In this document: in pieces, positions 1 to 12,632 of the stretch
Position numbering within the stretch: the first letter of the stretch is position 1
Layout: every line of letters starts with the position of its first letter
Source: a virus
Taxonomy: Duplodnaviria; Heunggongvirae; Uroviricota; Caudoviricetes
IMG/VR virus record: IMGVR_UViG_2778261687_000011
Coordinates: 1 to 12,632 of that record
Reading direction: 5' to 3' (one strand)
DNA length: 12,632 nt
The notes under the pieces: generated by a model
Seen by the model: the letters and a program-made list of their open reading frames with translations, nothing else
Databases searched by the model: none
What the model was told of the DNA's origin: nothing
Made by a program: the position numbers and the translations under genes

Positions 1-546
1 AAGCGTGCGTATTGCCTGAAAACACAACCCGCTACGGGGGAGACTTACCCGAAATCTGATTTATTCAACAAAGCCGACTTCCGTCTGATGTCACGAGAGG
101 TCGTAGAGAATATCAAACAGCTACCCGAAAGAAATCTATTTATGAAGGGGGTTCTTTCGTGGGTTGGCGGAAAAACTGATGTTGTAGAATACGTGCGTGC
201 TGAACGTGTCGCAGGTGATTCTAAATTCAACGGCTGGAAGTTGTGGAACCTAGCACTTGAAGGTATAACAAGTTTCTCCACATTCCCGCTGAGGATGTGG
301 ACATACATTGGATTGTTTGTTGCCGGTCTATCTTTTTTATATGGCGCGTGGATGATTGTAAACACTCTTGCCTTTGGCAACCCAGTTCGTGGTTACCCTT
401 CGCTCCTTGTTTCAATCCTTTTCCTTGGCGGAATACAGTTGATTGGAATCGGTGTGTTAGGTGAATATATCGGCAGAATTTATATTGAAACCAAACAACG
501 TCCAAAATATGTTCTAAAAAATGTCAGGAAAGACAGCAATGACTAA
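1..546 (+). CDS. gtrB: Bactoprenol glucosyltransferase GtrB (GT2 family), 5'-partial; continues upstream of the window
   Basis: Frame 1 is open from base 1. The translation [14 protein letters not shown]...[21 protein letters not shown]...[16 protein letters not shown]...[12 protein letters not shown] closely matches my recollection of the GtrB C-terminal half, including the two C-terminal transmembrane helices. The first ~25 codons match less well than the rest. Confidence 0.88.
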
Positions 547-1957
547 CGATTCTAAAAATTTAGGAATTTTACTGTTTGTTGGTTTTTTATATGTGCTCCC
601 TTTCATTATCGGTGGACATTTATACGTAGATGATTTTTTGCGTATAGAGATACCATATGGATGGGATCATAATGGTAGATATTTTTCAACAGTCCTGTCT
701 AATCTCATTGGCAACGGTCATATTCTAATATTATCTCCATTTACTATGATGATTGCAGCGCTGTTCCTCATTTACCCTGCACACAAAATCAGCAGTGTAT
801 TTTTTGGTAGCGAGTTGAGTTTTGCGAAAGCATCATTTTCTTTATCACTTTTACTATCCCCATTTTTTATAAATAATCTTGCCTATCAGTATGATGCAAT
901 TTTGATGTCCGCATCTGTAGGCATGGCTGCGATGGCAGCGTACTACTGTTATCTCGGAGTTTCTTCAAAGCTCTTTTATGCTACAGCATTCATTCTGCTA
1001 ATACTGGCAATTTCATCTTATCAGTCATCTATTGCAGTATACTTATCAATTATATTGATACTAGCCATACACAGCATGATGTCAGGTAAAGCAACTATTT
1101 TTAGTGCTATTAAGTTTTGCGTCATTGCTGGCGTTCTAATGCTTGTTGCATACGCACTATACAAGAAGGTGATTTTTAACCCCGATGATATGAGTGAGTA
1201 TACAAAGATGCGCTCTGAAATGCTGGGCATTGACATGTATACGTTAAAAAACATGTTCACCTCCTATCTTAAATTCAAGGAAATCTTTTATGATTTATTC
1301 CATGGGTTTATAGGAAAAATTTTACTTTTGTATGTTACGCTTCCTTTTGCTGTGATTTTATTAAAAAAAGGATTAAGCTTGCCTGTAAAATTAACGAGTG
1401 TTGTTTTTTACTTGTTTATTATCTTCCTTTCCTTTGGCATGCTACTGATTCTAAAAAATCCACCAGTGACCAGTCGTTCTATGGTTTCGGGCGGAGTGAT
1501 AATCATGGCATCGACAATGATTATTTTTACTAATATCACCTTTAAAAGGCTTGATTGGGTATCAGTTGTGCCGATGGTAATATCATTTATTTTTGTAAGC
1601 TGTTTCTTCATGCTTCAAAATATAAATTATTCCAGAATTGATAATGTCTTAATGCGTACAAATGCAGTCTTATCGCTGCAAAATAAAGATTACCAGAAAA
1701 TTTATCTAAAAATAAACAAACCCAGTTCAGCATCAGAACCATACAGAAAAGCATTTCCTTTCATATACAATATGAATAGATACTTCTATACTGGCAATCC
1801 TTTCATGGATAAAGTCTCCCATTTAAAACTGGGGTATAGTATCTACCCGTGCGATTCTGGTTGTAAAAAAATAGAATCAGATGGAACTGTGAGATTCAAC
1901 GCTCAAAACATGATATTGAAAGAGCGAAATGGACAAGCAATTGTTATAGTGAACTAA
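539..1957 (+). CDS. GtrC-like type-specific O-antigen glucosyltransferase (polytopic membrane protein)
   Basis: ORF of 472-478 aa starting immediately after gtrB (ATG 539 overlaps the gtrB stop at 544-546, AGGA about 10 nt upstream; alternative in-frame ATG at 521 has no SD). Many hydrophobic segments in the first ~370 aa and a hydrophilic C-terminal domain; AT-rich like gtr loci. Assignment is by operon position and topology, not by recognised sequence motifs. Confidence 0.65.
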
Positions 1958-1964
1958 TTATTTT

Positions 1965-1988
1965 GATGCCAACACTTTTGTTGGCATC
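1965..1988 (+). terminator. Perfect 10-bp hairpin (gatgccaaca-cttt-tgttggcatc) just after the gtrC-like stop; candidate intrinsic terminator or mRNA-stabilising stem-loop
   Basis: Inverted repeat read directly from the sequence; followed by accTTTgc, a weak U tract. Confidence 0.4.
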
Positions 1989-2020
1989 ACCTTTGCAAAC
2001 TCATTAGTGGGCTGATCTAA

Positions 2021-2690
2021 ATGGCAAAAACAGACATTAATAACGGAGTTGTAGTTGCACGTTTTATTGCTATATTGCTGGTAGTTTTACTACATGCCAG
2101 TGCCGGACCTTTCGGGGCTAAACTCGCTCCTGACTGGGAGTGGGCCAATATTTACAGCGCAATATCGAAACAATGCATTGGTATTTTCATTGTCATAACT
2201 GGCTTTCTCTATGCAAATAAAGAAATTGAGTTTAAAGGCTTCATCCTTAAAGGAATAAATCTCCTTGTAATTCCACTGGCGTTTTGGTGGGTAATTTACG
2301 CAGCATATTTGATACTTTTTAAAAATGCAGGCATAGATAGTTTTAGCCCTATGAAACCATCAAGCATACACCTTTGGTTTATGTACGATTACATTGCAAT
2401 TTATCTTTTTGTTCCAATGATAGTTATGGGATGTAGAGAAATAAGAACGCGCTATAGCCTTTTGATATTCGCAGTTCTGTTTTACAGCACATCCTTATAC
2501 CCAGAGCTTAATGCAATAGGAATACCCGCTCCGAAGATAAACGTTCCATTTGCAAGTTATTTAATGCTCTATGTTTTTGCAGGTTACATAGCTGCACGCA
2601 AGGAAGATTTAATAATTAAGTACAGGATTGTATTTGCTCTCCTTTCATTGACACTTTCCGTTGTTACCATTTATGTTAATAAAGGGATAC
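2021..2690 (+). pseudogene. Acyltransferase family 3 (Oac/OafA-like O-antigen acetyltransferase) gene, 3'-truncated at about 2690
   Basis: N-terminal ~224 aa are hydrophobic with acyltransferase-3-like segments (VVARFIAILLVVLLHASAGPFG, IFIVITGFLY, HLWFMYDYIAIYLFVPMIV). At about 2690 composition switches from AT-rich to GC-rich and the rest of ORF 2021..3250 becomes Arg/Pro/Ser-rich nonsense that is the reverse strand of phage genes. Full-length family members are about 330 aa. Confidence 0.6.
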
Positions 2691-3030
2691 CGAATTCAAT
2701 CAGGCGCCAGTGTGGCGTCGGGGCGTTTTCACCGAGATCAGGATGTTTTTTCAGGACTGCACCATGCAGCACGCCGATCCTAAATCCGAGGTTACCGGTG
2801 GTTTTGAAGATGCGGTTGTTCCATCGCATAGCCACGTTTGCGGCAATGCTGCGGCCTGTTAACGGGTCATCAATCCTGGCGGCGTTCGCTTTTGCTTTTT
2901 CGACAATCACGTTACCAGCGCGCCGGAGTGCGGCCCGTCCACCGCGACGACGCAGATCGTCACTGATGGATGATAGTTTCCCCACCAAACTCTCAACTCC
3001 AGTAATGCTGATATCAATGCCGTCAGCCAT
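2671..3030 (-). CDS. HK97 gp10-family tail-completion/head-tail joining protein, C-terminally truncated at the junction
   Basis: Translation contains IDDPLTGRSIAANV...TPHWRLIEFG, typical of the HK97 gp10 family, but ends 5 codons after EFG with residues (IPLLT) encoded by AT-rich non-phage DNA. Family members normally continue about 40-50 aa further. GAGGAG SD upstream of ATG 3030. Confidence 0.65.
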   Translation of the reverse strand: MADGIDISITGVESLVGKLSSISDDLRRRGGRAALRRAGNVIVEKAKANAARIDDPLTGRSIAANVAMRWNNRIFKTTGNLGFRIGVLHGAVLKKHPDLGENAPTPHWRLIEFGIPLLT

Positions 3031-3355
3031 CGTTCACTCCTCGCGAGCATGGCAGCGTCAGATATTCCCGGCCGCTTTTATCGTCTTCCAGCACGCCCTG
3101 AATATCGTAAACGCGTCCACGGTAAAGAATGCGGTGCTTATCCGTGACATCATCACGCCAGCGAATAGTGATCCGTGTGGTTACCTCGTTTTGTCCGGCC
3201 TGCGCGGCCACAAAATCGCGAGCAGACAAATCGGTAACGTTGGCCCATAGCTCAGCCATGTCAGCCCATCCATTAACCACCGCGCCGGTAACCGGGCTCT
3301 GCGTTTTAACAGGCTTCTGAAGCATGATTCGTTTATTGAGCTTCCCCGCCTGCAT
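3023..3355 (-). CDS. Phage head-closure / head-tail adaptor protein
   Basis: 110-aa ORF in the expected position between connector and gp10-like gene; ITIRWRDDV...RILYRGRVYDIQGV resembles the head-closure family; AGGGGG SD upstream; 8-nt overlap with the downstream gene. Confidence 0.7.
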   Translation of the reverse strand: MQAGKLNKRIMLQKPVKTQSPVTGAVVNGWADMAELWANVTDLSARDFVAAQAGQNEVTTRITIRWRDDVTDKHRILYRGRVYDIQGVLEDDKSGREYLTLPCSRGVNDG

Positions 3356-3357
3356 GA

Positions 3358-3537
3358 TTACCCCCTGGGCTTGCCGCTGAGGTAAGTATGCTGTGGAAGT
3401 TCAGCTTCACTCTCTTCAACTACCATTGACTGGTAGATCACCGCCGTCAGAGCTTCGTTTGACTCCGCCAGCCGATTCATCGCTGCTGTCTGGGCTGCCA
3501 TTGCTGTCAGCAGCTGGTTTACCTGTTGCTCGTTCAT
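3358..3537 (-). CDS. Small hypothetical protein (59 aa), head-module gene not present in the ORF track
   Basis: Hand translation of the minus strand gives MNEQQVNQLLTAMAAQTAAMNRLAESNEALTAVIYQSMVVEESEAELPQHTYLSGKPRG with a natural helical composition; its stop lies 2 nt before the head-closure ATG. Weak SD. Competes with the overlapping ORF 3416..3607. Confidence 0.4.
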   Translation of the reverse strand: MNEQQVNQLLTAMAAQTAAMNRLAESNEALTAVIYQSMVVEESEAELPQHTYLSGKPRG

Positions 3538-3597
3538 AGGCGATTTTCATCCACTTTTTTAGCCACTCACGGCGGGCGGCACATCCTGAACAGGCCA

Positions 3598-3930
3598 TCA
3601 GTGCCACCTCCTGTGCTGCATCAGTAGTGCTTCAACTCCAAGCGGTAGCTCAGAAGTAATATTTCCGACATTGACTGCTTCCCGGTTTGCGTACCAGTGA
3701 CCGATAAGAAGCAGCATTGCCGCCCATATGCCGGAAGTGAAAAGGATCTCACGTGGCGGCATTTCCCCTTCCACTGGCGGCGTCAACGACTCCACCAGCG
3801 TGCCGTCGCAGAATTTCTCAACATAATCGACGGCAGCCGATGCGTAGGCCGCAATAAGAGAATCTTCGGCGTCGCTATCAACCCTCAGATGCGTCTTTAT
3901 CTGCGCCATCTGCTCCGCGCTTATTTCCAC
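3598..3930 (-). CDS. Phage gp6-like head-tail connector protein
   Basis: N-terminus AQIKTHLRVDSDAEDSLI and C-terminal HWYANRE...LPLGVEALL are characteristic of the gp6-like connector family. GTG start at 3930 with GGGGT upstream; an in-frame ATG at 3909 is an alternative start. Confidence 0.75.
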   Translation of the reverse strand: MEISAEQMAQIKTHLRVDSDAEDSLIAAYASAAVDYVEKFCDGTLVESLTPPVEGEMPPREILFTSGIWAAMLLLIGHWYANREAVNVGNITSELPLGVEALLMQHRRWH

Positions 3931-4120
3931 CTTTACCCCCGGTTTTGGCTTTTACAGGCTGTTCAGGATCGGAGGTTTTCGCCTTTTCGGGATCAACCTC
4001 TTCGGCCAGGTGCAGTTTTACCAGCGCTTCGCCGATTTCTTTCTTCACTACGCGGGTTTCGCCCTGGGATACTGTACCCAGGTGATAATGCGAGAACATA
4101 CGAAGAGCTTTAATTTTCAT
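3878..4120 (-). CDS. Hypothetical small protein immediately downstream of the major capsid gene
   Basis: 80-aa ORF starting 37 nt after the capsid stop; the N-terminal ~55 aa look protein-like, the Gly/Lys-rich C-terminus overlaps the gp6-like start by 32-53 nt and may be frame noise. No clear SD. Confidence 0.3.
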   Translation of the reverse strand: MKIKALRMFSHYHLGTVSQGETRVVKKEIGEALVKLHLAEEVDPEKAKTSDPEQPVKAKTGGKGGNKRGADGADKDASEG

Positions 4121-4156
4121 ACATTAAACGCGGCCATTGCTGACCGCGTCCTCCTG

Positions 4157-5320
4157 TCAGGAGCCAGCAGAAACCGCAATATCGCCAGTGACGATAGCTG
4201 CAGGACGATAGTGCGCCAGCGCCAGGCGTTCTTCGCACAGGATGGTCAGCATGTTTTTAACGAAGTTATCGCGATCCTGGTTGCTGATCTCGATAGTGGC
4301 ATCCATGCGGTCCCACACCTGCGATGCCAGACCAAACGCACCAACGGTAAATTTGCCTGCCGTCTGCGCCGTGGTCGAAACTACCGGCAGACCCCAGAGC
4401 ACTTTGGAGGCAAAGGCCTGTGGGCCGCCAAGGATGTAATTGCCGTTAGCATCTTTCAGCAGCGCGATACGGTGCCAGTCCGCCGGGTTGAGAATGATAC
4501 CGTCGGCTTCAAACTCGCTCAGCGACACCTGATAGATTGCATGCGCCAGAACATCAGCACCGGTATCTCCGGTCGCGTTGAGTGCAGTTTCGTAGTCGTT
4601 CGCCACCACGTTCAGCCCCTGGAGGTTGTCGCCGGTGCCATCACCGTTCAGCATCTGGTTTTCTTCCACCAGCGCCAGGCCATACATCATGCGGGAGTTG
4701 ATGTAGGACTGCAGTGCCGGGGCATCGTCCATGATCTGGCGCGACGCCTGGATCCAGTGAGCGATGGTTTTCACGTTCGCCGTTTCTTTGGTGAAGGTAA
4801 TGTTACTTTCCGGCTTGAGGGTACCTTCCGCCACTGGCGCCGCGGCGTTGGTAAACACATTTTCACGCACGTATTCAAGCGCGTTACTGGTGATGCGCCC
4901 CTGCGCCAGCAGGTCACGTACGGTCAGGCGACGCAGGCCCGGCATAAGGATACCCGGTTGCTGCTGCGGCAGAACCAGTGCGCCGGCGGAGTTCGCGCCA
5001 GAGCCGATCGCTTTGTCGAAGCTGGTCACTTTCGCTTTGGTACGTGAGCCGTCCCAGCCTTTCATCAGGTCTTCGGACACGCGTTCTGCAAAGGATTTCT
5101 GGGCGGTCTGTTCAGGCGAGTTGCCAGCCAGCTTCTGCTCAAGATCGAACAGTCGAGTGCCGGTGGCTTTCAGCTCATCCTGGGCTTTCGCCAGGTCGGT
5201 CTGCAGCTGCTTGTTGATTTCGCCGTTCTGGTTGATGGATTTACGCTGTTCCTCGATAAGCTCCTTCACTTCTTTCTGGGAGTTCTCGATCGCTTTTTCC
5301 AGGGTTGCTAATTCAGACAT
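4157..5320 (-). CDS. Major capsid protein, HK97 family (with N-terminal delta/scaffolding domain)
   Basis: 387 aa; coiled-coil N-terminal ~100 aa followed by a capsid domain, the same size and architecture as HK97 gp5; sits directly after the prohead protease gene; GGAG SD. Confidence 0.92.
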   Translation of the reverse strand: MSELATLEKAIENSQKEVKELIEEQRKSINQNGEINKQLQTDLAKAQDELKATGTRLFDLEQKLAGNSPEQTAQKSFAERVSEDLMKGWDGSRTKAKVTSFDKAIGSGANSAGALVLPQQQPGILMPGLRRLTVRDLLAQGRITSNALEYVRENVFTNAAAPVAEGTLKPESNITFTKETANVKTIAHWIQASRQIMDDAPALQSYINSRMMYGLALVEENQMLNGDGTGDNLQGLNVVANDYETALNATGDTGADVLAHAIYQVSLSEFEADGIILNPADWHRIALLKDANGNYILGGPQAFASKVLWGLPVVSTTAQTAGKFTVGAFGLASQVWDRMDATIEISNQDRDNFVKNMLTILCEERLALAHYRPAAIVTGDIAVSAGS

Positions 5321-5331
5321 GTTTTGCTCCG

Positions 5332-6012
5332 TTAGGGATTCCGCAGGTTAGCGGCAAAGGAAGTTATGCGCTGTGCCAGCGCGTCAATGTCGCCGCCGCC
5401 GAACTCGCTTCGGCCTGCGGACTTCACGCGGGCGATAAACGCCTGCGCTTCAGCACGCGTAAGGCCGACTGAATCCCTCAGCCAGGCCTCCGCGTCACGA
5501 ATGGTTTTAATGCCGTCAATGCTCTTCATGGCGGTTACGCCCGCCAGTTCGTTGGCCGGGAATGTGCAGACACTGATTTCCCGCAGATAAGTAATGTTTT
5601 TGAAAATGAGGCCGGACGTGCCGACGGTGTAATCGTCAGGGCCGACTGAAAAACCCACCGACATGCCTTCAACCGTGCCATGCTGCATGGCGGCCTTCAG
5701 ATCCTCGGCCAGGCTCAATCTGGGTGTGAGCTGCCCTCGGACATAAAGCCCCTTCTCGTCTTCGTGCATGGCATCCCATTTGCCAACCGGGATGGCTCGC
5801 GTCTGGTGGTTGAAGAACATCGCCACCTTGCGGCTCTGGTTAGCCACCACACCAGCGAAAGCCCCGGGCAAAATAATGTCGCCGTCGGCGTCGGTGTTAT
5901 TGAAAACCGAGGCATACCCTTCAAACGTTCCCTTGCTGCCGTCGCCGGTGAACTTGATTTCGGTCTGGTCGAACGCCAGCGTCTTGTGAATATCAGGCAT
6001 CGTGGCCCCCAT
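5332..6012 (-). CDS. Prohead maturation protease, HK97 family (peptidase U35/S78)
   Basis: 226 aa, between portal and capsid genes; sequence ADGDIILPGAF...GLYVRGQL...FSVGF is typical of HK97-type prohead proteases. An alternative ATG at 5998-6000 (M5) has a better SD. Confidence 0.9.
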   Translation of the reverse strand: MGATMPDIHKTLAFDQTEIKFTGDGSKGTFEGYASVFNNTDADGDIILPGAFAGVVANQSRKVAMFFNHQTRAIPVGKWDAMHEDEKGLYVRGQLTPRLSLAEDLKAAMQHGTVEGMSVGFSVGPDDYTVGTSGLIFKNITYLREISVCTFPANELAGVTAMKSIDGIKTIRDAEAWLRDSVGLTRAEAQAFIARVKSAGRSEFGGGDIDALAQRITSFAANLRNP

Positions 6013-6039
6013 AAAAATTAAGCCCCGTCATTGCGGGGC
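6011..6039 (-). terminator. Terminator-like hairpin (GCCCCG-CAAUGA-CGGGGC) plus UUAAUUUUU at the portal/protease boundary; possible attenuator
   Basis: Read from the sequence; the stem encodes the last portal codons and the U tract runs into the protease start. Confidence 0.25.
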
Positions 6040-7289
6040 TCTTTGTTTGTTCCGAGGTCGGTAATGGGAACGTTCTGCGACTGGCGCGTCGCCACATCAC
6101 CGCCAGGCAAAGGCGGAAGATTATCCAGTCGCCGCACTTCGTTAACGGTACGGATCCCTGTATTAACCATGGTTTGCATGAAGGTAGCGCGGCTCGCTGA
6201 GTCACCACGAAGCAGGCCATCAAGGTTATGCTCGGCGTGCAGCCTTCCCTGATCGGACTCTTTTACCAGCCAGCGCTCTATGCTGTACTCCCAGCGATCG
6301 AGATAGGGCTTCAGGGTGTACTGGAGAAAGCCGAGGTTCTGCTGTTCAATGCCGCTGCCCCATGAAGTTGTTTTTTCAACATCACCAACCAGGTGCGGCG
6401 GAACACCGTAAAAGCGCGCCAGCTCTGCCACCTGAAACTTACGGGCCTCAAGCATCTGTGCGTCCTGCGGCGAGATGCCTATCGGCTGCGTGGTGAACCC
6501 GCTCTCAATGATCCAGAGGCGTTTTCTCACCGGGCCGCCGGCAATCTCCTTAAAGTTTTCCTCCAGCTGTCCGCGCTGCTCTTTGGTCAGCACCTTGCCG
6601 TCAGTCATCAGGATTTGCGGTGATTTGGCGCCGTTGGCGAAAAACTCCCGCTGGTTATCTTCCATAGCAATAGCCACGCCTGCAGATTTGGCGCTGAACG
6701 CCAGCGGCGATAACCCGACCAGCCCGTTAAAGCCGAAGCCTTTCAGGTGGAATATTTCTTTCGGCTTAAAGTCCACATACTCGCTGTCGCGCCGGTACCG
6801 GTAGATGACATTTTTTCCATCGAGCCGGACATCCATATTCGCGCTCATCAGCGGAAGCAGGCTGATGACATCGCCGACGCTGTTTCGCTCCACATGCGCG
6901 TAGGCATTGCCGTAGGCGCAAAGCTGCATTGTCATTGCCTCGCGAAACTCCAGCGCGGTCATGAAGTTGTTGGGCCGGAAGCGAAGAAGCTTCGCCAGCG
7001 GGTTCTGGTTGTCGACTTTCTTTCGCTGATCATCGATGGTTTCAAAAACATCCAGCGGTAACGAGGCTGTTACGGTGGAGATGAGCCGGATGCAGGCCCA
7101 TACGGTGCTGATCGACATGTTGCGCTCATCGCTCACCACCGATTCCCCGACGGTGCCGTGAGCTGATGTGCCCGCCATCTGCGAGCCATTATCCGGTGAA
7201 ACCAGGCGGCCACCGGTCAGAATAGAGGCCATGCGCGCCCAGAATGGCGATCGCGTTCGCAGGTCAATGCTGTAATCGGTATCTGCCAT
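6018..7289 (-). CDS. Portal protein, HK97 family
   Basis: 423 aa, immediately downstream of TerL and upstream of the protease; size and position match the HK97 portal family. Confidence 0.9.
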   Translation of the reverse strand: MADTDYSIDLRTRSPFWARMASILTGGRLVSPDNGSQMAGTSAHGTVGESVVSDERNMSISTVWACIRLISTVTASLPLDVFETIDDQRKKVDNQNPLAKLLRFRPNNFMTALEFREAMTMQLCAYGNAYAHVERNSVGDVISLLPLMSANMDVRLDGKNVIYRYRRDSEYVDFKPKEIFHLKGFGFNGLVGLSPLAFSAKSAGVAIAMEDNQREFFANGAKSPQILMTDGKVLTKEQRGQLEENFKEIAGGPVRKRLWIIESGFTTQPIGISPQDAQMLEARKFQVAELARFYGVPPHLVGDVEKTTSWGSGIEQQNLGFLQYTLKPYLDRWEYSIERWLVKESDQGRLHAEHNLDGLLRGDSASRATFMQTMVNTGIRTVNEVRRLDNLPPLPGGDVATRQSQNVPITDLGTNKEPRNDGA

Positions 7290-7291
7290 TT

Positions 7292-8824
7292 TTAAACGCT
7301 CAAAAAGTTGTAAATGAAATCGTTAACGTCGCCCGGATCCTCCACCTCATCACTGGTCTGTGCGCCGATAGACATCGCCAGCGCCACCATGCCGTCGATA
7401 CGGCCGCTCGATTTGCCTTTCACAAACTTGCGGTTACCGGCGGGGTCGGTGATTACCGTGGCGTTTTTGGCGCACATCTCGAGGATCGGATGGTTGCCGT
7501 GCTTCAGTTGCGCGCCGAGCAGTTTAGCTTCCAGCTCCCTGAGCGCAGGCGACATGGAGACAAAACCCTGGCCGAATTCCACGAACCGCTCGAGCTCCGC
7601 CTCAGTGAAACCGGCGTCGATGAGATGCGGGCGAAGGAAGCGCATGTTGTAGCGGTCGAACGCCAGCGCCCGGACGTTACAGATATCAAAAACGCGCCGC
7701 AGCTCCCGTGCAATAAAGGCGTACTCAATGGCTTTGCCCGGCGTCGTGTTCAGCCAGCCCTGCTTCGCCCATATGTCATAAGGCACGCGATCGTTACGCG
7801 CCTTGTCCGCCAGCCCCTCTTCAGGTAGCCAGAACTTACAGTGCACATCGCCCTGCGTTGTGTTGAGCACCAGCGCGGTCAGGTCCGACACGCTGGAAAG
7901 GTCCAGCCCGCCCCAGACGGTAGCGCCCGCCAGTTCGCCAGGCTCTTCTTTGTTCATGTGCCAGACGGTCTGGCTGACGAACGGGCTTTTCGCCTCAACC
8001 CTGCGGTTCAGTACAAGGTTCTCAAATTCAGCCTGGCGCGACGGGAGGCGCTTGGCGCTGGCGGCCATATCCAGCACTTCTTTCTGGTTCATGAACACAT
8101 CGAAGGCCGGGTTAGCCAGCCTGATGGCTTCGACAGAGAAAGGATCGATATCTTCCGGCGCGGTCTGCAGCCGTACCACCGTTCGCGGATCGGCACCGGT
8201 CAGGCCATCATCAATCAGCAGGCTGAGCAGGTCGCTCGCATCGGGTGCCTGGGTGCTGATGATTACCGAGATAGGGTTGTCCTGAGCAGCGGTCGCGGTT
8301 TCCAGAGCTTCATAAAGCGGGTCACGCGGCCCGCGCACCTGGCCCAGCTCATCATGGGCGACAAATCGCGGCGAGAAACCGTAGGCCGTTGTGGCCTCAG
8401 CGCTCAACGCGCGATAGTAAGAGCCCAGTTCAGGGCAGTGAATCTCTTTGGCTGAATCTTTTATGGCAACGTATTGCATCAGTGTCGGATTCATACGACA
8501 CATTTTCGAAGCAAGGTTAAACAGAATTGCTGCCTGATCGCGTGATCGGGCTGCGGAATACAATTGTGAGTTAGGCGCTGATTCGGGACCAACCAGATAA
8601 AGCAGCATGATTATCGCTGTCTCTACCGTCTTGGCGTTCTTTCGCCCCCTGCTGATAATCGCGCGGCGAGTACCATGCTCATTATCAAATATTGCTCTGA
8701 AGTCATCCTTCATGAAAGGAGCCATCTTCAGAGGCTGGCCTACGTACTTCCCTTCAGGGATCAGGATGTGTTTCTCACACCAGGCTATATTGCGCTCAGC
8801 CCTTGTAAGCTTTTTTTTCGCCAT
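7292..8824 (-). CDS. Terminase large subunit
   Basis: 510 aa; Walker A-like SRGRKNAKT near the N-terminus, Walker B-like FVAHDELG, C-terminal nuclease-like region; follows the TerS gene after a 13-nt gap. Confidence 0.92.
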   Translation of the reverse strand: MAKKKLTRAERNIAWCEKHILIPEGKYVGQPLKMAPFMKDDFRAIFDNEHGTRRAIISRGRKNAKTVETAIIMLLYLVGPESAPNSQLYSAARSRDQAAILFNLASKMCRMNPTLMQYVAIKDSAKEIHCPELGSYYRALSAEATTAYGFSPRFVAHDELGQVRGPRDPLYEALETATAAQDNPISVIISTQAPDASDLLSLLIDDGLTGADPRTVVRLQTAPEDIDPFSVEAIRLANPAFDVFMNQKEVLDMAASAKRLPSRQAEFENLVLNRRVEAKSPFVSQTVWHMNKEEPGELAGATVWGGLDLSSVSDLTALVLNTTQGDVHCKFWLPEEGLADKARNDRVPYDIWAKQGWLNTTPGKAIEYAFIARELRRVFDICNVRALAFDRYNMRFLRPHLIDAGFTEAELERFVEFGQGFVSMSPALRELEAKLLGAQLKHGNHPILEMCAKNATVITDPAGNRKFVKGKSSGRIDGMVALAMSIGAQTSDEVEDPGDVNDFIYNFLSV

Positions 8825-8837
8825 TCGCTAATCAGCC

Positions 8838-9272
8838 TTAATCAATTTCCCAGGGCTTTTTCTCCCGAGCCAGATTGCTGTTGGCCCGGCCAACAGTTTT
8901 GGGATCGGCAGTAGCCTGGCGGGTAATCCGCAGGCGGGTCGCAAGAGAAGATGCCGATCGCACCTCGCGCTCGCGCATCGTGAGCAGCCTGTCGTAGCGC
9001 TTCAGCCCGTCTTCGCGGGACAACCACTCGAGCTCAAACTCTTCAATCTGGGTGGTGAGCAGCCGGGCCTGCACCACATGCCGACAGTACATCTCCAGCA
9101 TGTCCCGGTGTGTTTCGGTGAATGAGCTGGCCGGGTTGTCATTAACCAGCCGGACCCAGACGTTAATCTCCGGATCGCTCAGGTGAATGGACGGCTGCAA
9201 CCTGCTTTCAGCCAGTGCCGGCAGCGAGACAGCAGACGTCGCAGCCAGAGACTTTCTGCCTCGCTGTGCCAT
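8838..9272 (-). CDS. Terminase small subunit (probably P27/HK97-like family)
   Basis: ATG at 9270-9272 (aa 45 of the longer TTG-initiated ORF 8838..9404) preceded by AAGGA. Basic N-terminus MAQRGRKS; position directly upstream of TerL and downstream of HNH. The family name is an inference. Confidence 0.72.
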   Translation of the reverse strand: MAQRGRKSLAATSAVSLPALAESRLQPSIHLSDPEINVWVRLVNDNPASSFTETHRDMLEMYCRHVVQARLLTTQIEEFELEWLSREDGLKRYDRLLTMREREVRSASSLATRLRITRQATADPKTVGRANSNLAREKKPWEID

Positions 9273-9404
9273 CGCGTTTTTCCTTTTTTTCTGGACGTTT
9301 TTAAAAATAAAACTGGGAGCGCGGTCTTTAAGAATTTGGTACCAGAGTTTTACCCCTCCCCCTCCCTTACCAACATAAATATGAGAATTGATATCATTTC
9401 TCAA

Positions 9405-9614
9405 TTACGTGTAAGCTTGAGTGAGGTATGCCAGAGGGCACCAGACGATCACCAACGCCGATTGGCAATGTGAGGGTAATGGTAGGGTAATGGTAGGCAG
9501 CATCTCACCGACCTCATGATTGAAGGAGACTGCAGTGGCATGTTTAAAGCTCACGCTATCAATGCTCAACTCAATCAACTTCCCATCACGGTATTCAATC
9601 TTCATGTCTTGCAT
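9405..9614 (-). CDS. Hypothetical small protein between HNH and terS genes (may instead be non-coding cos region)
   Basis: ATG preceded by AGGAG that overlaps the HNH stop (translational-coupling geometry); the N-terminal ~40 aa look natural, but the C-terminal part reads through an 11-bp tandem repeat. Confidence 0.35.
   Translation of the reverse strand: MQDMKIEYRDGKLIELSIDSVSFKHATAVSFNHEVGEMLPTITLPLPSHCQSALVIVWCPLAYLTQAYT
9473..9497. repeat. Tandem direct repeat, about 2.3 copies of the 11-mer agggtaatggt, in the HNH-terS interval
   Basis: Read directly: agggtaatggt agggtaatggt agg. Coordinates may be off by 1. Confidence 0.55.
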
Positions 9615-9626
9615 CAACTACTCCTG

Positions 9627-9917
9627 TTACCAGATAACACGGCCTTCATTATCGAACTCGGTGACCGTTCCGCCCTTCTCCATCCTCTGCTTTACCGAGT
9701 CGTGGCAACGTTTGCAAAGTGACTGAAGATTATCCGGATCATGAAAGAGCCTATCGTCTCCTTTGTGCGGGATGACATGGTCAACGATCGTTGCCGCTAT
9801 CACCTGATTGCGCCGGAGGTGGAACTCACAAAGAGGTTGCTTCTGAAGCTGGTGATAGCGGAGTCGGTACCAACGCTTGGAATTGTAGAGGCTATGCCAA
9901 GGTGAATTGGATGCCAT
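9627..9917 (-). CDS. HNH endonuclease (terminase-associated)
   Basis: 96 aa with Cys/His pairs (CEFH...DHVIPH...CKRCH) typical of phage HNH proteins; lies upstream of terS as in HK97-like cos phages; GAGGGAG SD. Confidence 0.88.
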   Translation of the reverse strand: MASNSPWHSLYNSKRWYRLRYHQLQKQPLCEFHLRRNQVIAATIVDHVIPHKGDDRLFHDPDNLQSLCKRCHDSVKQRMEKGGTVTEFDNEGRVIW

Positions 9918-9994
9918 GGTTAATCTCCCTCTGCATTGCTAAATCGCCAATTCCGGCTAACGGCGTGCCCAGGCTCACAGCTGAAAGACTTTCT

Positions 9995-10024
9995 TTGAAG
10001 TGCGCGTGAGATGCGCTTTATACT
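9995..10024 (+). promoter_or_regulatory. Candidate sigma70 promoter (TTGAAG, 18-nt spacer, TATACT) for the moron gene
   Basis: Hexamers read from the sequence about 95 nt upstream of ATG 10120 in the divergent intergenic region. Not validated. Confidence 0.3.
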
Positions 10025-10119
10025 CCAGCAATAGCCGCCAGCAATGCCAGTAAGTATCAAATTACAAAATTATCTTTGTTCATTTTGTTGAGTGACACCT
10101 CAAAAAGGAGGCATGGGAA

Positions 10120-10653
10120 ATGAGTCTGGAAAAATTGCTAATCAAAGATAGAAAATGTGGTTCATGTTCTGTTTGTTGTAAATCCCTGAGAATCGAAGAG
10201 CCAGAGCTTAAAAAATTTGCTGGAGTGCCATGTCAGCATCTTAAAGCACAGGGCGGATGTTCGATTTATAATGATCGCCCATCTCTATGTCGTACGTGGT
10301 ACTGCGGATGGAGAGTTTTAGGTATCGGTCCGGAAATGAGGCCTGATCGTTGTGGTGTTCTTATTCGCTTCGATGGCAAAGCTCTGTGCTTTCAGCCAGT
10401 AAATGATGGTCAAGTTACTACATTGCTTGATCCAGAGCCTTTACGTGTTTTAAGCAGTTCAATTGCAAATGGGATGACCGTTCAGATTTCGATTCCGACA
10501 AAAGAAGGCTTTTGCTCTTCAAATGTCGACGTTACAGCAGCTATGACCGAGGTAGTTAAAACCAGAGAGTTTGATAAGATTCGTGCAACTATGATTGGAT
10601 TAATTCAATTCGCTGCGAATTCGAAGACAGACCCGATTGCTCCTTTAAATTAG
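10120..10653 (+). CDS. YkgJ/UPF0153-family cysteine-cluster protein (CxxCxxCC putative zinc/iron-chelating domain); moron
   Basis: 177 aa with N-terminal CGSCSVCC then C..H...GGCSIYNDRP..C....C, matching the CxxCxxCC domain family that includes flagellin lysine-N-methylase FliB. Strong SD AAGGAGG 9 nt upstream. Lower GC than the flanking phage genes and opposite orientation to the late operon. Confidence 0.75.
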   Translation: MSLEKLLIKDRKCGSCSVCCKSLRIEEPELKKFAGVPCQHLKAQGGCSIYNDRPSLCRTWYCGWRVLGIGPEMRPDRCGVLIRFDGKALCFQPVNDGQVTTLLDPEPLRVLSSSIANGMTVQISIPTKEGFCSSNVDVTAAMTEVVKTREFDKIRATMIGLIQFAANSKTDPIAPLN

Positions 10654-10661
10654 CATCCGAT

Positions 10662-10679
10662 GCCGGGGTTGCACCCGGC
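10662..10679 (+). terminator. Weak terminator-like hairpin (gccggg-gttgca-cccggc) after the moron gene
   Basis: 6-bp GC stem 9 nt after the stop codon; the following tract TTAACAAAC is only weakly U-rich. Confidence 0.25.
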
Positions 10680-11047
10680 TTAACAAACGAGAAACATACG
10701 AATCGGTTGCAAATCTCAAGCAGCTCTTGTCTTTTAACATTAGACGATCGTTTCATTAGCATTTCATCTGATGTACTGAATAAGTTTTTCATAAAACATT
10801 CCCATTCTAATTATCTAGGCTGCATTTAAATGCCTCACCACTTCCCGGAGTGGCCACGCTCATGCCCTTGAGTTGCTGTCGCTTCATCGCCGCTTATAAC
10901 CGGTGCGCGTCTGGCGTTCGCGCTGCTCTACCGGAGCTTATTTTGATATAAGAACCTTGACCCGTCGCTATACAGGCTCGCTCAATGGCGACTCAGGGCA
11001 GCATCATTACTGCTGCATTGCCTTTCGGCTGCGGTCTAACCGCTTTG

Positions 11048-11278
11048 CTACTTGATTTCGAGTTTCTCCTTCTGACAATTTGCCTGCCACGCTTTGTTAT
11101 GCGTCAGGATGTCGCGCTTGGTCTGCTTATCCAACACATCCCAGTCATTATCTGTTGCATAGATAGGATGAACCCAGTCGCACGCCGTATCGACTACCTC
11201 AACCCTTACGGGTCCAGTTTGTGCGCAGCTCGCGATCAACGTCGTCGCCAGGCATATGATTAACTTTCTGCTGTACAT
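11048..11278 (-). CDS. Outer-membrane spanin (Rz1-like lipoprotein, o-spanin), overlapped architecture
   Basis: Internal ATG at 11276-11278 of ORF 11048..11449 gives MYSRKLIICLATTLIASC..., a signal peptide with lipobox LIASC, followed by a short periplasmic domain with extra Cys. Starts inside the i-spanin gene in another frame and extends beyond it. Confidence 0.6.
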   Translation of the reverse strand: MYSRKLIICLATTLIASCAQTGPVRVEVVDTACDWVHPIYATDNDWDVLDKQTKRDILTHNKAWQANCQKEKLEIK

Positions 11279-11471
11279 TACTGGCCTCTCTGGTGACTTC
11301 TGCCTGACGTTCTGCCACTGCAACCTTCGCCGCTGCGTTTTCTTCAGTGCGTTGTTGATCGGCTTTCGCTTCTGCTTTGCTGGTTCCGCGAATATGGCCA
11401 AGACCAAACCCACCAGCAGCGGCAACACAGATAGCACCAATGACACCAATGATGATTTCTACAATGCTCAT
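11199..11471 (-). CDS. Inner-membrane spanin (Rz-like, i-spanin)
   Basis: 90 aa with one N-terminal transmembrane helix (IVEIIIGVIGAICVAAAGG) then a charged Ala/Glu/Gln-rich coiled-coil-like region; start overlaps the endolysin stop (ATGA); contains the o-spanin start. Confidence 0.6.
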   Translation of the reverse strand: MSIVEIIIGVIGAICVAAAGGFGLGHIRGTSKAEAKADQQRTEENAAAKVAVAERQAEVTREASNVQQKVNHMPGDDVDRELRTNWTRKG

Positions 11472-11998
11472 GCAATCACCGCTTTCGCTTTGCCGTAACG
11501 CACGCGTCTGTCGTTAATGCCGTTCTGACCGCCATTGATAATCTGAGTGATGCGCACCAGGTCATCGGTGTACTTCAGGCAACCTTTGGAGGCGTAGAAC
11601 CATGCAGCAGAACGCGCAGCATTGATGTCTTTCTCCAGCAGTTCAGGGTTAGTAACCAGGTCAAGCTTCAGACCATTGCCGCAATCACGGTAATTGGTGA
11701 GACCGGTAATCTGAATTAATCCGCGCCCACGGTATTTCCAGCCATCACCAGCAGCTTTATTACCCAGGCGGTTGCTGTATACCAGGTTCGCGATAGCTTC
11801 CTGACTTGCTGGCTTACCGTTGGCACGTCCAAGCATTAAGGCCTGGTAGTTCGTTACCCGGCGTCCAAACGTCGTCAGTAATGCGGCAGGCGTGTAGTTG
11901 AAGTTCTCCACCAGCGCAGAGAATCCCGCCGATTCATGTCCTACCTGAGCAATGAACATCGCCTTATCTTTTGGTTCAGTGATGCCGAACTCTTTCAT
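11468..11998 (-). CDS. Endolysin, glycoside hydrolase family 19 (chitinase-like), missing about 25-30 N-terminal residues
   Basis: FIAQVGHESAGF...GDGWKYRGRGLIQITGLTNYR...ITQIINGGQNGINDRR are GH19 endolysin motifs. The frame stays open and homologous-looking upstream of M1 for about 15 codons, then hits a stop at about 12044 with no start codon. No holin gene upstream. Confidence 0.85.
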   Translation of the reverse strand: MKEFGITEPKDKAMFIAQVGHESAGFSALVENFNYTPAALLTTFGRRVTNYQALMLGRANGKPASQEAIANLVYSNRLGNKAAGDGWKYRGRGLIQITGLTNYRDCGNGLKLDLVTNPELLEKDINAARSAAWFYASKGCLKYTDDLVRITQIINGGQNGINDRRVRYGKAKAVIA

Positions 11999-12032
11999 TG
12001 CATCCGTACAGGCTAACCATGAGCATAGTTCG

Positions 12033-12632
12033 ATGTCACGCGTTTACAGGTGGGGATATCAACGTGGATTTGTGCCAGGCAACCCATGCGTAGGCGTCGA
12101 TAAATACCCTAAACCTCAGCGCGACCGATACATTACGGATGAAGAGTATTTAGCAATTTATGACTGTGCTACTGATCCGGTAAAAGCCGCAATGGAAATT
12201 GCTTATCTCTGTGCAGCGAGGGTTTCCGATGTTCTGAAAATGGACTGGAATCAGATAATGGATAAAGGAATTTTCATTCAACAGGGTAAAACTGGAGTTA
12301 AGCAGATTAAAGCGTGGACAGACCGCTTGCACTCCGCTGTCAATCTTTGCAGGAAATCAGGGGAAGATGGCGCTGTCATCAAAACCATGTACGGAGAGCG
12401 ATATTCCTATAAAGGTTTCAATGAAGCCTGGAGAAAGGCTAGGAATGCGGCTGCTGAAAAAATTGGCAGACCGTTAGACTGCACGTTCCATGATCTGAAG
12501 GCGAAAGGCATTTCTGACTATGAAGGAAGTGGCCGTGATAAGCAAAAATTCAGTGGTCACAAAACTGAATCACAGGTGTTGGTATACGACAGGAAAGTAA
12601 AAATTAGCCCAACTTTAAACAGAAAAATGTGA
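12033..12632 (+). pseudogene. Lambda-family tyrosine integrase, C-terminal catalytic domain only (5'-truncated)
   Basis: Catalytic-domain motifs ARVSD (Arg-I), QQGKTG (Lys), TFHDLK (His), GHKTESQ...LVYDR (His, Tyr) with spacing parallel to lambda Int; the N-terminal arm-binding and core-binding domains are absent. The preceding part of ORF 11952..12632 is the reverse strand of the endolysin 5' end. Stop codon at the window end. Confidence 0.75.

What the first reader, a model, noticed from the sequence alone, without database searches (positions are those of the whole stretch)
2671..9917. Apparently intact tail-less packaging and head module retained inside an otherwise decayed prophage
Seen in sequence: HNH, TerS, TerL, portal, protease, major capsid, gp6-like and head-closure genes form an uninterrupted minus-strand operon with tight or overlapping junctions and recognisable ribosome-binding sites, while every flanking gene (gp10-like, acyltransferase, endolysin, integrase) is truncated. 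Inference: this may be simple decay caught before the head genes were hit, or it may reflect selection for a capsid and packaging function, as in capsid-forming phage-inducible islands and gene-transfer-agent-like remnants.
Basis: inference. Interest (0 to 1): 0.5.

Follow-up and report, generated by a model that had tools for sequence, protein, structure and literature searches.

The report
Decaying prophage with surviving head genes
This is an ordinary, recently crippled E. coli prophage whose head and packaging genes have not yet been deleted; sister strains carry the same remnant with those genes damaged or gone, so nothing suggests the bacterium keeps them for a purpose.

Summary
The described genes are real. 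HNH, TerS, TerL, portal, S78 protease, HK97-type capsid, gp6-like adaptor and head-closure genes are full length on the minus strand (3023-9917). They are flanked by truncated gp10, acyltransferase, GH19 endolysin and integrase genes.

The element is a deletion derivative of a lambdoid, HK97-headed siphovirus prophage at tRNA-serU (yodB/mtfA) in one clonal E. coli lineage.

- **Young, phage-derived:** TerS to head-closure (6.3 kb) differs at only 3 bases from a complete, tailed prophage.
- **Relaxed constraint:** two of those changes are non-synonymous, derived and at otherwise invariant residues (protease G98R, portal L261I). The small ORF between HNH and TerS carries an 11-bp duplication frameshift.
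- **Dispensable in sister strains:** with 99.9-100% identical flanks, some have head-closure cut to 23 codons. Others, sharing the window's endolysin::integrase junction, have lost HNH's end through to the tail spike. Markers of that head-less form are on 22-24 contigs, against 7 for the window's form.
- **No means of expression or spread:** the antiterminator, holins, replication genes and a working integrase are absent.

The "simple decay" reading is supported. The cf-PICI-like and GTA-like readings are not. Interest is low.

The parts
1..75 (.). End of an IS903B (IS5 family) copy that interrupts gtrB in this strain. It is probably also the reason the contig ends here.
   Evidence: 100% matches to annotated IS903B/IS5 transposase copies in 1414 E. 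coli genomes. L004, L006 and L009 match the window only from base 76.
76..546 (+). 3' part of gtrB (bactoprenol glucosyltransferase). The 5' part is displaced by the IS.
   Evidence: intact 310-aa Glycos_transf_2 GtrB at the same place in L004 and L009; about 75% nucleotide identity to yfdH.
521..1957 (+). Serotype-specific GtrII-type glucosyltransferase, full length (478 aa)
   Evidence: PF14264, E 6.9e-25; the exact protein sits in gtrA-gtrB-gtr operons of sister loci.
2021..2689 (+). Acyltransferase, 5' fragment (codons 1-223 of 328). The listed 409-aa ORF 2021-3250 is a chimera that reads on into the antisense of gp10 and head-closure.
   Evidence: Acyl_transf_3 matches residues 12-219 only; intact 328-aa gene in L009-L012; homology ends at 2689.
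2688..2689 (.). Deletion junction J1 (gp10' :: acyltransferase'). It removed the 3' end of gp10, all tail genes, the tail spike and the 3' end of the acyltransferase.
   Evidence: sister loci match up to 2689 and intact prophage L003 matches from 2688; abrupt AT-rich to GC-rich switch.
2671..3030 (-). HK97-gp10-like gene, truncated (119 aa against 161; the last few codons are foreign)
   Evidence: PF04883; the full-length orthologue is 161 aa.
3023..3355 (-). Head-closure protein (110 aa), intact
   Evidence: PF05521, E 5e-32; phrog_25; 100% identical to L003.
3358..3537 (-). Small conserved head-module ORF (59 aa), function unknown
   Evidence: phrog_2612; identical to L003. T31M in L006 and L011.
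3598..3909 (-). gp6-like head-tail adaptor (103 aa from the ATG; 110 aa from the GTG at 3930), intact
   Evidence: PF05135; phrog_40; identical to L003.
3878..4120 (-). Small conserved ORF (80 aa) after the capsid gene, function unknown
   Evidence: phrog_18204, E 1.4e-40. T22P in L005, L007 and L010.
4157..5320 (-). HK97-type major capsid protein (387 aa), intact
   Evidence: PF05065, E 3e-54; identical to L003 and 96% identical to the KpF5 protein; 74.5% nucleotide identity to HK97 gp5.
5332..6012 (-). S78 prohead protease (226 aa), full length, with the remnant-specific substitution G98R (base 5721)
   Evidence: PF04586. Gly is conserved in L001, L002, L003, HK97 gp4 and every other listed cluster member that spans the site; the R98 allele was found only in remnant contexts.
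6018..7289 (-). Portal protein (423 aa), full length, with the remnant-specific substitution L261I (base 6509)
   Evidence: PF04860, E 2.8e-97..
7292..8824 (-). Terminase large subunit (510 aa), intact
   Evidence: TerL_ATPase plus TerL_nuclease; the exact protein is also encoded by complete tailed prophages (L003 and 16 similar places).
8838..9272 (-). Terminase small subunit (144 aa from the ATG at 9272), intact
   Evidence: phrog_12559, E 4.5e-76; identical to L003.
9295..9365 (-). cos-like region upstream of TerS: a G-run plus GACCGCGCTCCCAGTTTTATTTTT. This is inferred, not shown.
   Evidence: the segment is conserved among the window, L001, L002 and L003, and aligns with the joined ends of the HK97 genome.
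9405..9614 (-). Small accessory ORF between HNH and TerS, frameshifted by an 11-bp tandem duplication at 9475-9496
   Evidence: phrog_24041 matches residues 1-46 only; removing one repeat copy restores a C-terminus homologous to L001 and L003.
9627..9917 (-). HNH endonuclease (96 aa), the terminase accessory nuclease of HK97-type packaging, intact
   Evidence: PF01844; full-length alignment to orthologues, 85-91% identity.
10120..10653 (+). YkgJ-family CxxCxxCC protein (177 aa) on the opposite strand, a moron
   Evidence: PF03692; the exact protein is on 188 contigs across Enterobacteriaceae.
11048..11471 (-). Overlapping spanin pair (Rz-like 11199-11471; Rz1-like inside 11048-11278)
   Evidence: phrog_1026 and phrog_1275, both Rz-like spanins.
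11468..12008 (-). GH19 endolysin, 3' fragment (176 aa ORF against 203 aa)
   Evidence: PF00182; the 203-aa gene and two holin genes lie upstream in L005-L007, and homology ends at 12008.
12005..12632 (+). Tyrosine integrase, 3' fragment (about 209 of 329 codons). Junction J2 with the endolysin lies at about 12005-12008.
   Evidence: PF00589. H14/L019 has a 329-aa integrase, 97.6% identical from base 12005, next to tRNA-Ser and mtfA.

Best explanation
The window is a defective (cryptic) prophage. It derives from a lambdoid siphovirus with an HK97-type head and a serotype-converting cargo (gtrABC plus an acyltransferase), integrated at tRNA-serU between yodB and mtfA in one clonal E. coli lineage. 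It is being taken apart by successive illegitimate deletions and an IS insertion.

In this strain one deletion (J2) fused the integrase 3' part to the endolysin 3' part. That deletion, together with earlier losses already visible in the sister loci, leaves the window without the integrase 5' part, regulatory, replication or antiterminator genes, or holins. A second deletion (J1) fused gp10 to the acyltransferase and removed all tail genes. IS903B then hit gtrB.

The head and packaging block survives intact only because the remnant is young and no deletion has yet landed in it in this sub-lineage. It is not maintained by selection and has no means of being expressed, replicated, excised, packaged as a unit or released. 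The identities, junctions, sister variants and substitution pattern are shown. The absence of expression is inferred.
For: - **Synteny with complete prophages.** The window is homologous and syntenic with complete tailed prophages in E. coli F467 and MRSN346595, with L003/L008, and with phage KpF5.
- **Very recent divergence.** TerS to head-closure (bases 3031-9300) differs from L003 at 3 positions only: one intergenic, protease G98R and portal L261I. Both amino-acid changes are derived and hit residues invariant in relatives, including HK97. The R98 allele occurs only in remnant contexts.
- **Frameshift.** The accessory ORF at 9405-9614 is frameshifted.
- **Independent deletions at the same site.** L005, L006, L007, L010 and L011 keep only 23 codons of head-closure. 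L009, L014 and E. coli D6-117.29 fuse the tail spike to HNH and lack TerS through to the tail genes, while sharing junction J2 with the window.
- **Clonal background.** Chromosomal flanks are 99.88-100% identical among carriers, against 98.8% to an unrelated E. coli.
- **Variant frequencies.** Exact marker proteins of the head-less form are on 22-24 contigs, the window-type gp10 fusion on 7, and the intact tail spike on 13.
- **Substitution pattern.** Head-module substitutions within the remnant lineage are 4 non-synonymous to 1 synonymous. The neutral expectation is 76% non-synonymous. At the omega of 0.03-0.06 measured for these genes between active phages, 4 of 4 has P of about 6e-5 to 4e-4. 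With the synonymous SNP included, 4 or more of 5 has P of about 0.002 at omega 0.05 (my arithmetic).
- **No expression signals.** Promoter-like sites upstream of the operon are no more frequent than chance, and there are no Rfam hits.
Against: - In every head-bearing variant seen, TerS through the capsid gene is untouched, and no SNP among the assembled sister genomes falls in the 5.8 kb from HNH to the capsid gene (about P 0.013 for 4 SNPs if placed at random, a post-hoc test). A metagenome scaffold (L025) adds one synonymous SNP, in portal.
- Those loci were retrieved through exact TerL or protease sequences, which biases the sample towards intact head genes.
- A cos-like site and all core head genes are formally intact, so residual activity cannot be excluded from sequence alone.
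- Surveys report that terminase, portal and capsid genes are usually lost preferentially in incomplete prophages (PMC7744054). A head-rich, tail-less remnant is therefore the less common state.
Confidence: 0.93

Rival explanations
1. The block is kept by selection as a capsid-and-packaging device. It would be a cf-PICI-like satellite, or a proto-satellite, that builds its own capsids, packages DNA from its cos site and borrows tails from helper siphoviruses.
For: - The window holds HNH, TerS, TerL, portal, protease, capsid, adaptor and head-closure genes with no tail or holin gene. This superficially matches 8 or 9 of the 11 cfPICI core components and avoids the forbidden components of the published model (PMC10085698).
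- A cos-like site is retained.
- cf-PICI packaging operons are themselves of HK97 origin (bioRxiv 10.1101/2025.02.11.637232).
Against: - There is no AlpA/MerR-type regulator and no primase-replicase, and the integrase lacks about its first 120 codons.
- The module is nucleotide-identical, apart from 3 bases, to that of a complete tailed prophage, so it is not a satellite-specific lineage or a small-capsid variant.
- Tails and holins are absent through mapped deletions. Sister loci still carry the tape measure, tail spike, holins and Q.
- Clonal sisters have lost head-closure or the whole module, and the head-less form is the commoner one.
- Substitutions fit neutrality, and there is a frameshift in the operon.
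Confidence: 0.03
2. It is a gene-transfer-agent-like domesticated remnant that packages random host DNA.
For: Only the presence of intact terminase, portal and capsid genes without replication or immunity genes.
Against: - There are no tail genes, no holin and a truncated endolysin, so particles could be neither infective nor released.
- The element is confined to one clonal lineage with variable deletions, rather than being conserved across species.
- The terminase is a cos/HNH type, not a headful type (family knowledge of HK97).
Confidence: 0.01
3. The remnant is not selected for its products, but it persists and matters as a recombination donor. Its head module is identical to that of circulating phages and could be picked up by, or rescue, superinfecting relatives.
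For: - There is 6.3 kb of near-perfect identity with the head module of complete prophages found in many assemblies.
- Mosaic breakpoints lie at about 2985 and about 9300, showing that this module is exchanged as a unit among phages.
Against: - Nothing indicates that this has happened from this locus.
- It gives no host-level selective reason to retain the block.
- G98R and L261I would be passed on and may be deleterious.
- This reading is compatible with neutral decay rather than a true alternative to it.
Confidence: 0.03
4. The truncations and junctions are assembly artefacts of a short draft contig.
For: The window begins inside an IS copy and is probably a whole small contig. One related metagenome scaffold shows a false split of TerL caused by a run of N.
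Against: - An independent assembly (L004/L023, GCA_012386995.2) matches bases 76-12632 with a single mismatch and the same two junctions, inside a 67.5-kb contig with chromosomal flanks.
- The gp10 fusion protein is on 7 contigs and the 176-aa endolysin fragment on 27 or more.
Confidence: 0.005

Closest known systems
Defective (cryptic) lambdoid prophages of E. coli, such as the K-12 remnants DLP12, Rac, Qin, e14 and CPS-53 (the last also carries gtr genes next to an integrase at a tRNA); own knowledge
   Same: It is integrated at a tRNA gene, with a truncated integrase, internal deletions with short or no homology at the junctions, an IS insertion and a retained cargo region. It cannot excise, replicate or lyse.
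   Different: It is much younger, with 3 substitutions in 6.3 kb against a live relative. It happens to retain the head and packaging block rather than the more usual integrase, tail-fibre and transposase leftovers (PMC7744054).
Complete HK97-headed lambdoid siphovirus prophages and phages: the E. coli F467 prophage (L001), the MRSN346595 prophage (L027), L003-type prophages, and Klebsiella phages KpF5, KPP5665-2 and ST16-OXA48phi5.3
   Same: The gene order is the same: lysis, (moron), HNH, small ORF, TerS, TerL, portal, protease, capsid, orf80, adaptor, orf59, head-closure, gp10. TerL and the capsid protein are 96-100% identical.
   Different: The window lacks everything after gp10 codon 114 (tail completion, tube, chaperones, tape measure, tip, spike). 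It also lacks everything before endolysin codon 25 (holins, Q, replication, immunity, xis, the 5' end of int).
Capsid-forming PICIs (cf-PICI/cfPICI, e.g. EcCIEDL933, KpCIDSM30104)
   Same: It has an HK97-derived HNH, TerS, TerL, portal, protease, capsid, adaptor and connector set without tail or holin genes.
   Different: It has no regulator or primase-replicase module and no functional integrase. It is not a discrete transferable unit. The head genes are phage alleles rather than a satellite clade. The tail-less state arose by a deletion that is polymorphic within one clone.
Serotype-converting gtr/oac prophages of Shigella and E. coli (SfV, SfII, SfX, Sf6 type); own knowledge
   Same: gtrA-gtrB-gtr(type) plus an O-antigen acyltransferase lie at the attachment-site-proximal end, opposite the integrase. 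SfV also has an HK97-like head.
   Different: In the window the cargo itself is dead: gtrB is interrupted by IS903B and the acyltransferase is truncated. No effect on the O-antigen was tested.

Membership tests
Defective lambdoid prophage (HK97-type head) | Homology and synteny with complete prophages or phages of the same type | tested here: met
   Searches give the gene tables. Searches give the alignments.
Defective lambdoid prophage (HK97-type head) | Sits at a phage attachment site with an adjacent integrase gene | tested here: met
   The order is yodB, gtr ... int', tRNA-Ser (serU), mtfA, tRNA-Asn, yeeJ.
Defective lambdoid prophage (HK97-type head) | Essential modules missing through identifiable deletions, or genes disrupted | tested here: met
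   J1 lies at 2688/2689 and J2 at about 12005-12008. IS903B occupies bases 1-75. An 11-bp duplication causes a frameshift. Tail, holin, Q, replication and immunity genes are absent.
Defective lambdoid prophage (HK97-type head) | Relaxed selection on phage genes since immobilisation | tested here: met
   There are 4 non-synonymous, 1 synonymous and 1 intergenic substitutions in the head module. This is incompatible with the omega of 0.03-0.06 seen between active phages. Power is low because the changes are few.
HK97-type head/packaging module | HNH nuclease, TerS/TerL, PF04860 portal, S78 protease and PF05065 capsid protein in that order, with a cos site upstream of TerS | tested here: met
   Searches identify the genes. 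The protease is 73% identical to HK97 gp4. The capsid gene is 74.5% identical in nucleotides to HK97 gene 5. The cos site is inferred only from alignment to the HK97 ends.
cf-PICI (capsid-forming PICI) | Integrase, transcriptional regulator (AlpA/MerR/Stl) and primase-replicase module | tested here: not met
   No such domains occur in any ORF of the window. The integrase is a 3' fragment.
cf-PICI (capsid-forming PICI) | Own HNH, TerS, TerL, portal, protease, capsid, head-tail adaptor and connector | tested here: met
   The definition comes from PMC10085698.
cf-PICI (capsid-forming PICI) | No tail or holin genes, as a property of the element | tested here: inconclusive
   These genes are absent from the window. 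The absence comes from deletions J1 and J2, and clonal sister loci still carry holins, the tape measure and the tail spike.
cf-PICI (capsid-forming PICI) | Packaging and capsid genes form satellite lineages distinct from phages and build small capsids sized for the island | tested here: not met
   TerS to head-closure is identical, apart from 3 bases, to a complete tailed prophage. All close relatives are full-size tailed prophages or phages. Capsid size itself is not testable here.
cf-PICI (capsid-forming PICI) | Induction, self-packaging and tail piracy | not testable with these tools
   This needs induction and transduction experiments.
Gene transfer agent | A complete head, tail and lysis gene set under host control, vertically conserved across species under purifying selection | tested here: not met
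   There are no tail or holin genes and the endolysin is truncated. The element is confined to one clonal lineage with polymorphic deletions. Substitutions look neutral.

The most novel reading that the evidence does not exclude
The window-type remnant is a satellite in the making. It would have a cos site plus a complete HK97-type capsid, packaging and connector set that is stripped of tails, lysis and regulation. A co-resident or superinfecting relative might drive it, for example by read-through or recombination, to produce tail-less capsids. Those capsids would package cos-linked chromosomal DNA, including the gtr region, and dock onto helper tails. That would be a snapshot of how cf-PICIs arise from prophages.
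Probability: 0.03. Interest if true: 0.6.

Novelty: already known. Interest (0 to 1): 0.12.

Why it matters
As a biological finding it matters little, because prophage decay by deletion is textbook. Two modest practical points follow.

1. The locus is an unusually clean natural decay series. At least five deletion states of one prophage occur at one site in one clone, next to a near-identical live relative. That could serve as a small case study of the order and rate of prophage erosion.
2. The window-type state mimics a cf-PICI in gene content: head, packaging and connector genes plus an integrase domain, with no tail or holin. Marker-based satellite finders that rely on forbidden tail and holin genes could call such remnants Type C cfPICIs. 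I infer this and did not run SatelliteFinder. Checking for the regulator and primase-replicase module, and for near-identity to tailed prophages, avoids the error.

Tried and rejected
- **Not E. coli?** One search found no complete E. coli genome covering more than 60% of the window, and the mtfA-int region is 92% identical over its full length. I rejected this. The chromosomal part is at least 99% identical to 2409 E. coli records, flanks are 98.8% identical to strain CUWW10, and NCBI names the carriers E. coli. The 92% comes from the divergent integrase.
- **TerL split in L025.** TerL is called as 92 plus 403 aa there, which looked like further decay. It is a scaffold gap of N.
- **"105-aa YkgJ", "472-aa GtrII" and "222-aa protease" in sister loci.** These looked like truncations. 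The DNA is identical, so they are only differences in start calling.
- **dN/dS against L003.** It is not computable for TerS to head-closure, because there are no synonymous differences. I used polarised counts instead.
- **Solved structures for the protease.** I searched to place G98 and got no hit. I used an alignment with HK97 gp4 instead.
- **Promoter and terminator scan of 9200-12632.** Counts are at chance level and uninformative.
- **Rfam and tRNA scans.** Neither found anything.
- **Are the closest E. coli hits (H2-H13) cf-PICIs?** I checked H7, which is a full tailed prophage.

Full report
**What is there**

The 12.6-kb window has three low-GC plus-strand genes on the left, a 55-60% GC minus-strand block in the middle, and mixed genes on the right.

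Pfam and PHROGs identify the minus-strand block as follows:
- HNH nuclease, 9627-9917
- a small ORF, 9405-9614
- TerS, 8838-9272
- TerL, 7292-8824
- portal, 6018-7289
- S78 prohead protease, 5332-6012
- HK97-type major capsid protein, 4157-5320
- an 80-aa ORF
- gp6-like adaptor, 3598-3909
- a 59-aa ORF
- head-closure protein, 3023-3355
- an HK97-gp10-like gene of 119 aa, 2671-3030

Junctions are tight, from -32 to +60 nt, except for 132 nt before TerS.

- **To the left:** 75 bases of an IS903B end, the 3' part of gtrB, a full-length GtrII-type glucosyltransferase, and an acyltransferase whose domain stops at residue about 219.
- **To the right:** a YkgJ-family gene on the other strand, a spanin pair, a GH19 endolysin fragment, and the C-terminal part of a tyrosine integrase.

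**Where it comes from**

Chromosomal DNA next to the element in near-identical assemblies is E. coli. The neighbours are hprRS, hiuH, msrPQ, zinT and yodB on one side and tRNA-Ser (serU), mtfA, tRNA-Asn and yeeJ on the other. NCBI names the carriers E. coli.

No complete RefSeq E. coli genome contains the locus. The best hits are complete lambdoid siphovirus prophages at 84-87% identity with the same gene order, carrying full tail, lysis, regulatory and integration modules. The related Klebsiella phage KpF5, isolated from hospital wastewater, also matches.

**The head block is a phage block, and a very young one**

An exact-protein look-up with TerL found the same 510-aa protein in complete tailed prophages (L003, L008 and 16 similar places).

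Across bases 3031-9300 (TerS to head-closure) the window differs from L003 at only three positions: 3356 (intergenic), 5721 (protease G98R) and 6509 (portal L261I). There are no synonymous differences.

Both amino-acid changes are derived. L001, KpF5, L003 and every other listed member of the 90% clusters that spans the sites carry Gly and Leu, and HK97 gp4 also has the Gly. The R98 protease allele was found only in remnant contexts.

Outside this block, HNH with the small ORF and gp10 diverge from L003. These are mosaic boundaries, at about 9300 and about 2985.

The small ORF between HNH and TerS contains an 11-bp tandem duplication (CTACCATTACC twice, 9475-9496). The PHROG family matches only residues 1-46, and deleting one copy restores a C-terminus homologous to L001 and L003. 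So the operon is not lesion-free, although this gene is accessory, since KpF5 lacks it.

**The deletions**

- **J1.** Sister loci with an intact 328-aa acyltransferase match the window up to 2689, and L003 matches from 2688. One deletion therefore runs from gp10 codon about 114 to acyltransferase codon 223 and takes out all tail genes.
- **J2.** Loci with a 203-aa endolysin preceded by two holins and a Q-like antiterminator match up to 12008. Integrase homology to a 329-aa gene starts at 12005. This junction joins the endolysin fragment to the integrase fragment. The holins and Q that lie between them in sister loci are missing from the window, along with the integrase 5' part.

An independent assembly (L004/L023) reproduces both junctions with one mismatch in 12,557 bases, so they are not artefacts.

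**The population evidence**

At the same chromosomal site, in strains whose flanks are 99.88-100% identical to one another (98.8% to an unrelated E. coli), several other deletion states exist.

| Loci | State |
|---|---|
| L007 | Head-closure cut after 23 codons and fused into the tail chaperone gene; tape measure and tail spike kept |
| L005, L010, L022 | Same junction as L007, with more of the tail lost |
| L006, L011, L024 | Same end-point, joined directly to the tail spike |
| L009, L014 and E. coli D6-117.29 | Tail spike C-terminal fragment fused to HNH; the 3' end of HNH, TerS, TerL, portal, protease, capsid, connectors and tails all removed; junction J2 shared with the window |

- The head-less form and the window form are therefore sister derivatives of one J2-bearing ancestor.
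- Marker proteins of the head-less form are on 22-24 contigs. The window-type gp10 fusion is on 7, and the intact 812-aa tail spike on 13.
- A complete head and connector set is thus the minority state. Two of the three sub-lineages have already damaged or lost the module.

**Selection**

Between active phages these genes evolve at dN/dS of 0.03-0.06 (window against L001 or KpF5).

Within the remnant lineage the head module shows:
- four non-synonymous changes: protease G98R, portal L261I, orf80 T22P and orf59 T31M
- one synonymous change: portal T235T, in a metagenome scaffold
- one intergenic change

With 3.19 non-synonymous sites per synonymous site, neutrality predicts 76% non-synonymous. 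At omega 0.05, four of four has P of about 4e-4, and four or more of five has P of about 0.002 (my arithmetic). The numbers are small, but they fit relaxed constraint and not phage-like constraint.

One observation points the other way. None of the four SNPs among the assembled sister genomes falls between HNH and the capsid gene (about P 0.013, post hoc). I do not weigh this heavily, because the loci were retrieved through exact head-protein sequences.

**Could it work?**

All core head genes and a cos-like sequence are formally present. The cos-like sequence is a conserved G-run plus GACCGCGCTCCCAGTTTTATTTTT at about 9295-9365, which aligns to the joined HK97 ends.

Several things are missing:
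- The window has no late antiterminator or late promoter region. Both are present in sister loci and deleted here.
- Promoter-like sites do not exceed chance.
- There are no replication or excision functions to make a packageable cos-to-cos substrate.
- There is no holin, the endolysin is truncated, and there are no tails.

My inference is that the block is silent cargo.

**Comparison with known systems**

The published cfPICI definition requires an integrase, a regulator and a primase-replicase, plus HNH, TerS, TerL, portal, protease, capsid, adaptor and connector, with tail and holin genes as forbidden components (PMC10085698). cf-PICIs make small capsids and steal siphovirus tails (bioRxiv 10.1101/2025.02.11.637232).

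The window meets the structural half only. It fails on the regulatory and replication half, on a working integrase, on being a discrete conserved unit, and on having satellite-type rather than phage-type head genes. It is tail-less and holin-less by recent deletion.

GTA criteria fail for lack of tails, lysis genes and conservation.

The element fits every criterion of a defective lambdoid prophage. Surveys report that terminase, portal and capsid genes are on average lost preferentially in incomplete prophages (PMC7744054). A head-rich remnant is therefore the less common outcome, but not a new one.

**Verdict**

The finding is ordinary. Its only wider uses are as a tidy decay series and as a warning that such remnants can imitate cf-PICIs in marker-based searches.

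Noticed in passing
window 9475-9496 (in ORF 9405-9614, minus strand): An 11-bp tandem duplication (CTACCATTACC twice) frameshifts the C-terminal 25 or so residues of the small phrog_24041 ORF between HNH and TerS. Removing one copy restores homology to relatives. L007 shares it.
   Followed up: yes
window 1-75: The end of an IS903B (IS5 family) element abuts gtrB at base 76. Sister loci have an intact 310-aa GtrB, so in this strain the serotype-conversion operon is interrupted as well.
   Followed up: yes
window 2021-3250 (+): The 409-aa ORF is a chimera. Acyltransferase codons 1-223 read through junction J1 into the antisense of gp10 and head-closure. Only residues 12-219 match Acyl_transf_3.
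   Followed up: yes
window 10120-10653 (+): A YkgJ-family CxxCxxCC cysteine-cluster protein is encoded on the opposite strand between the lysis genes and HNH, as a moron. The exact protein occurs on 188 contigs across Enterobacteriaceae. Its function in phages is unknown.
   Followed up: partly
window ~9295-9365 (minus strand): A conserved G-run and the sequence GACCGCGCTCCCAGTTTTATTTTT upstream of TerS align with the joined genome ends of HK97. This is probably the cos site of this phage group.
   Followed up: partly
L019 (E. coli CUWW10, NZ_CP182145.1 2595920-2602547): A different and more reduced remnant sits at the same serU site: a gtr glucosyltransferase, a hypothetical gene, IS1A and a 329-aa integrase 97.6% identical to the window's fragment. 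serU seems to collect gtr-carrying prophage remnants at different stages of decay.
   Followed up: no
window 521-2689; names: NCBI labels several carriers 'E. coli O28ac/42:H37'. The gtr and acyltransferase cargo may bear on the O28ac versus O42 distinction. In the window strain both gtrB and the acyltransferase are disrupted.
   Followed up: no
L004, L005, L006 and L009 flanks (yeeJ): The inverse-autotransporter gene yeeJ next to the remnant differs in length between otherwise near-identical strains (called at 2358 and 2367 aa, with a gap of about 570 bp in the L005 and L006 alignments). This is probably variation in Big_1 repeat number.
   Followed up: no
L025 2386-2426: A metagenome scaffold carrying the remnant shows TerL split into two ORFs. 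The cause is a run of N, not a mutation, so this is a caution for lesion calls from scaffolds.
   Followed up: yes
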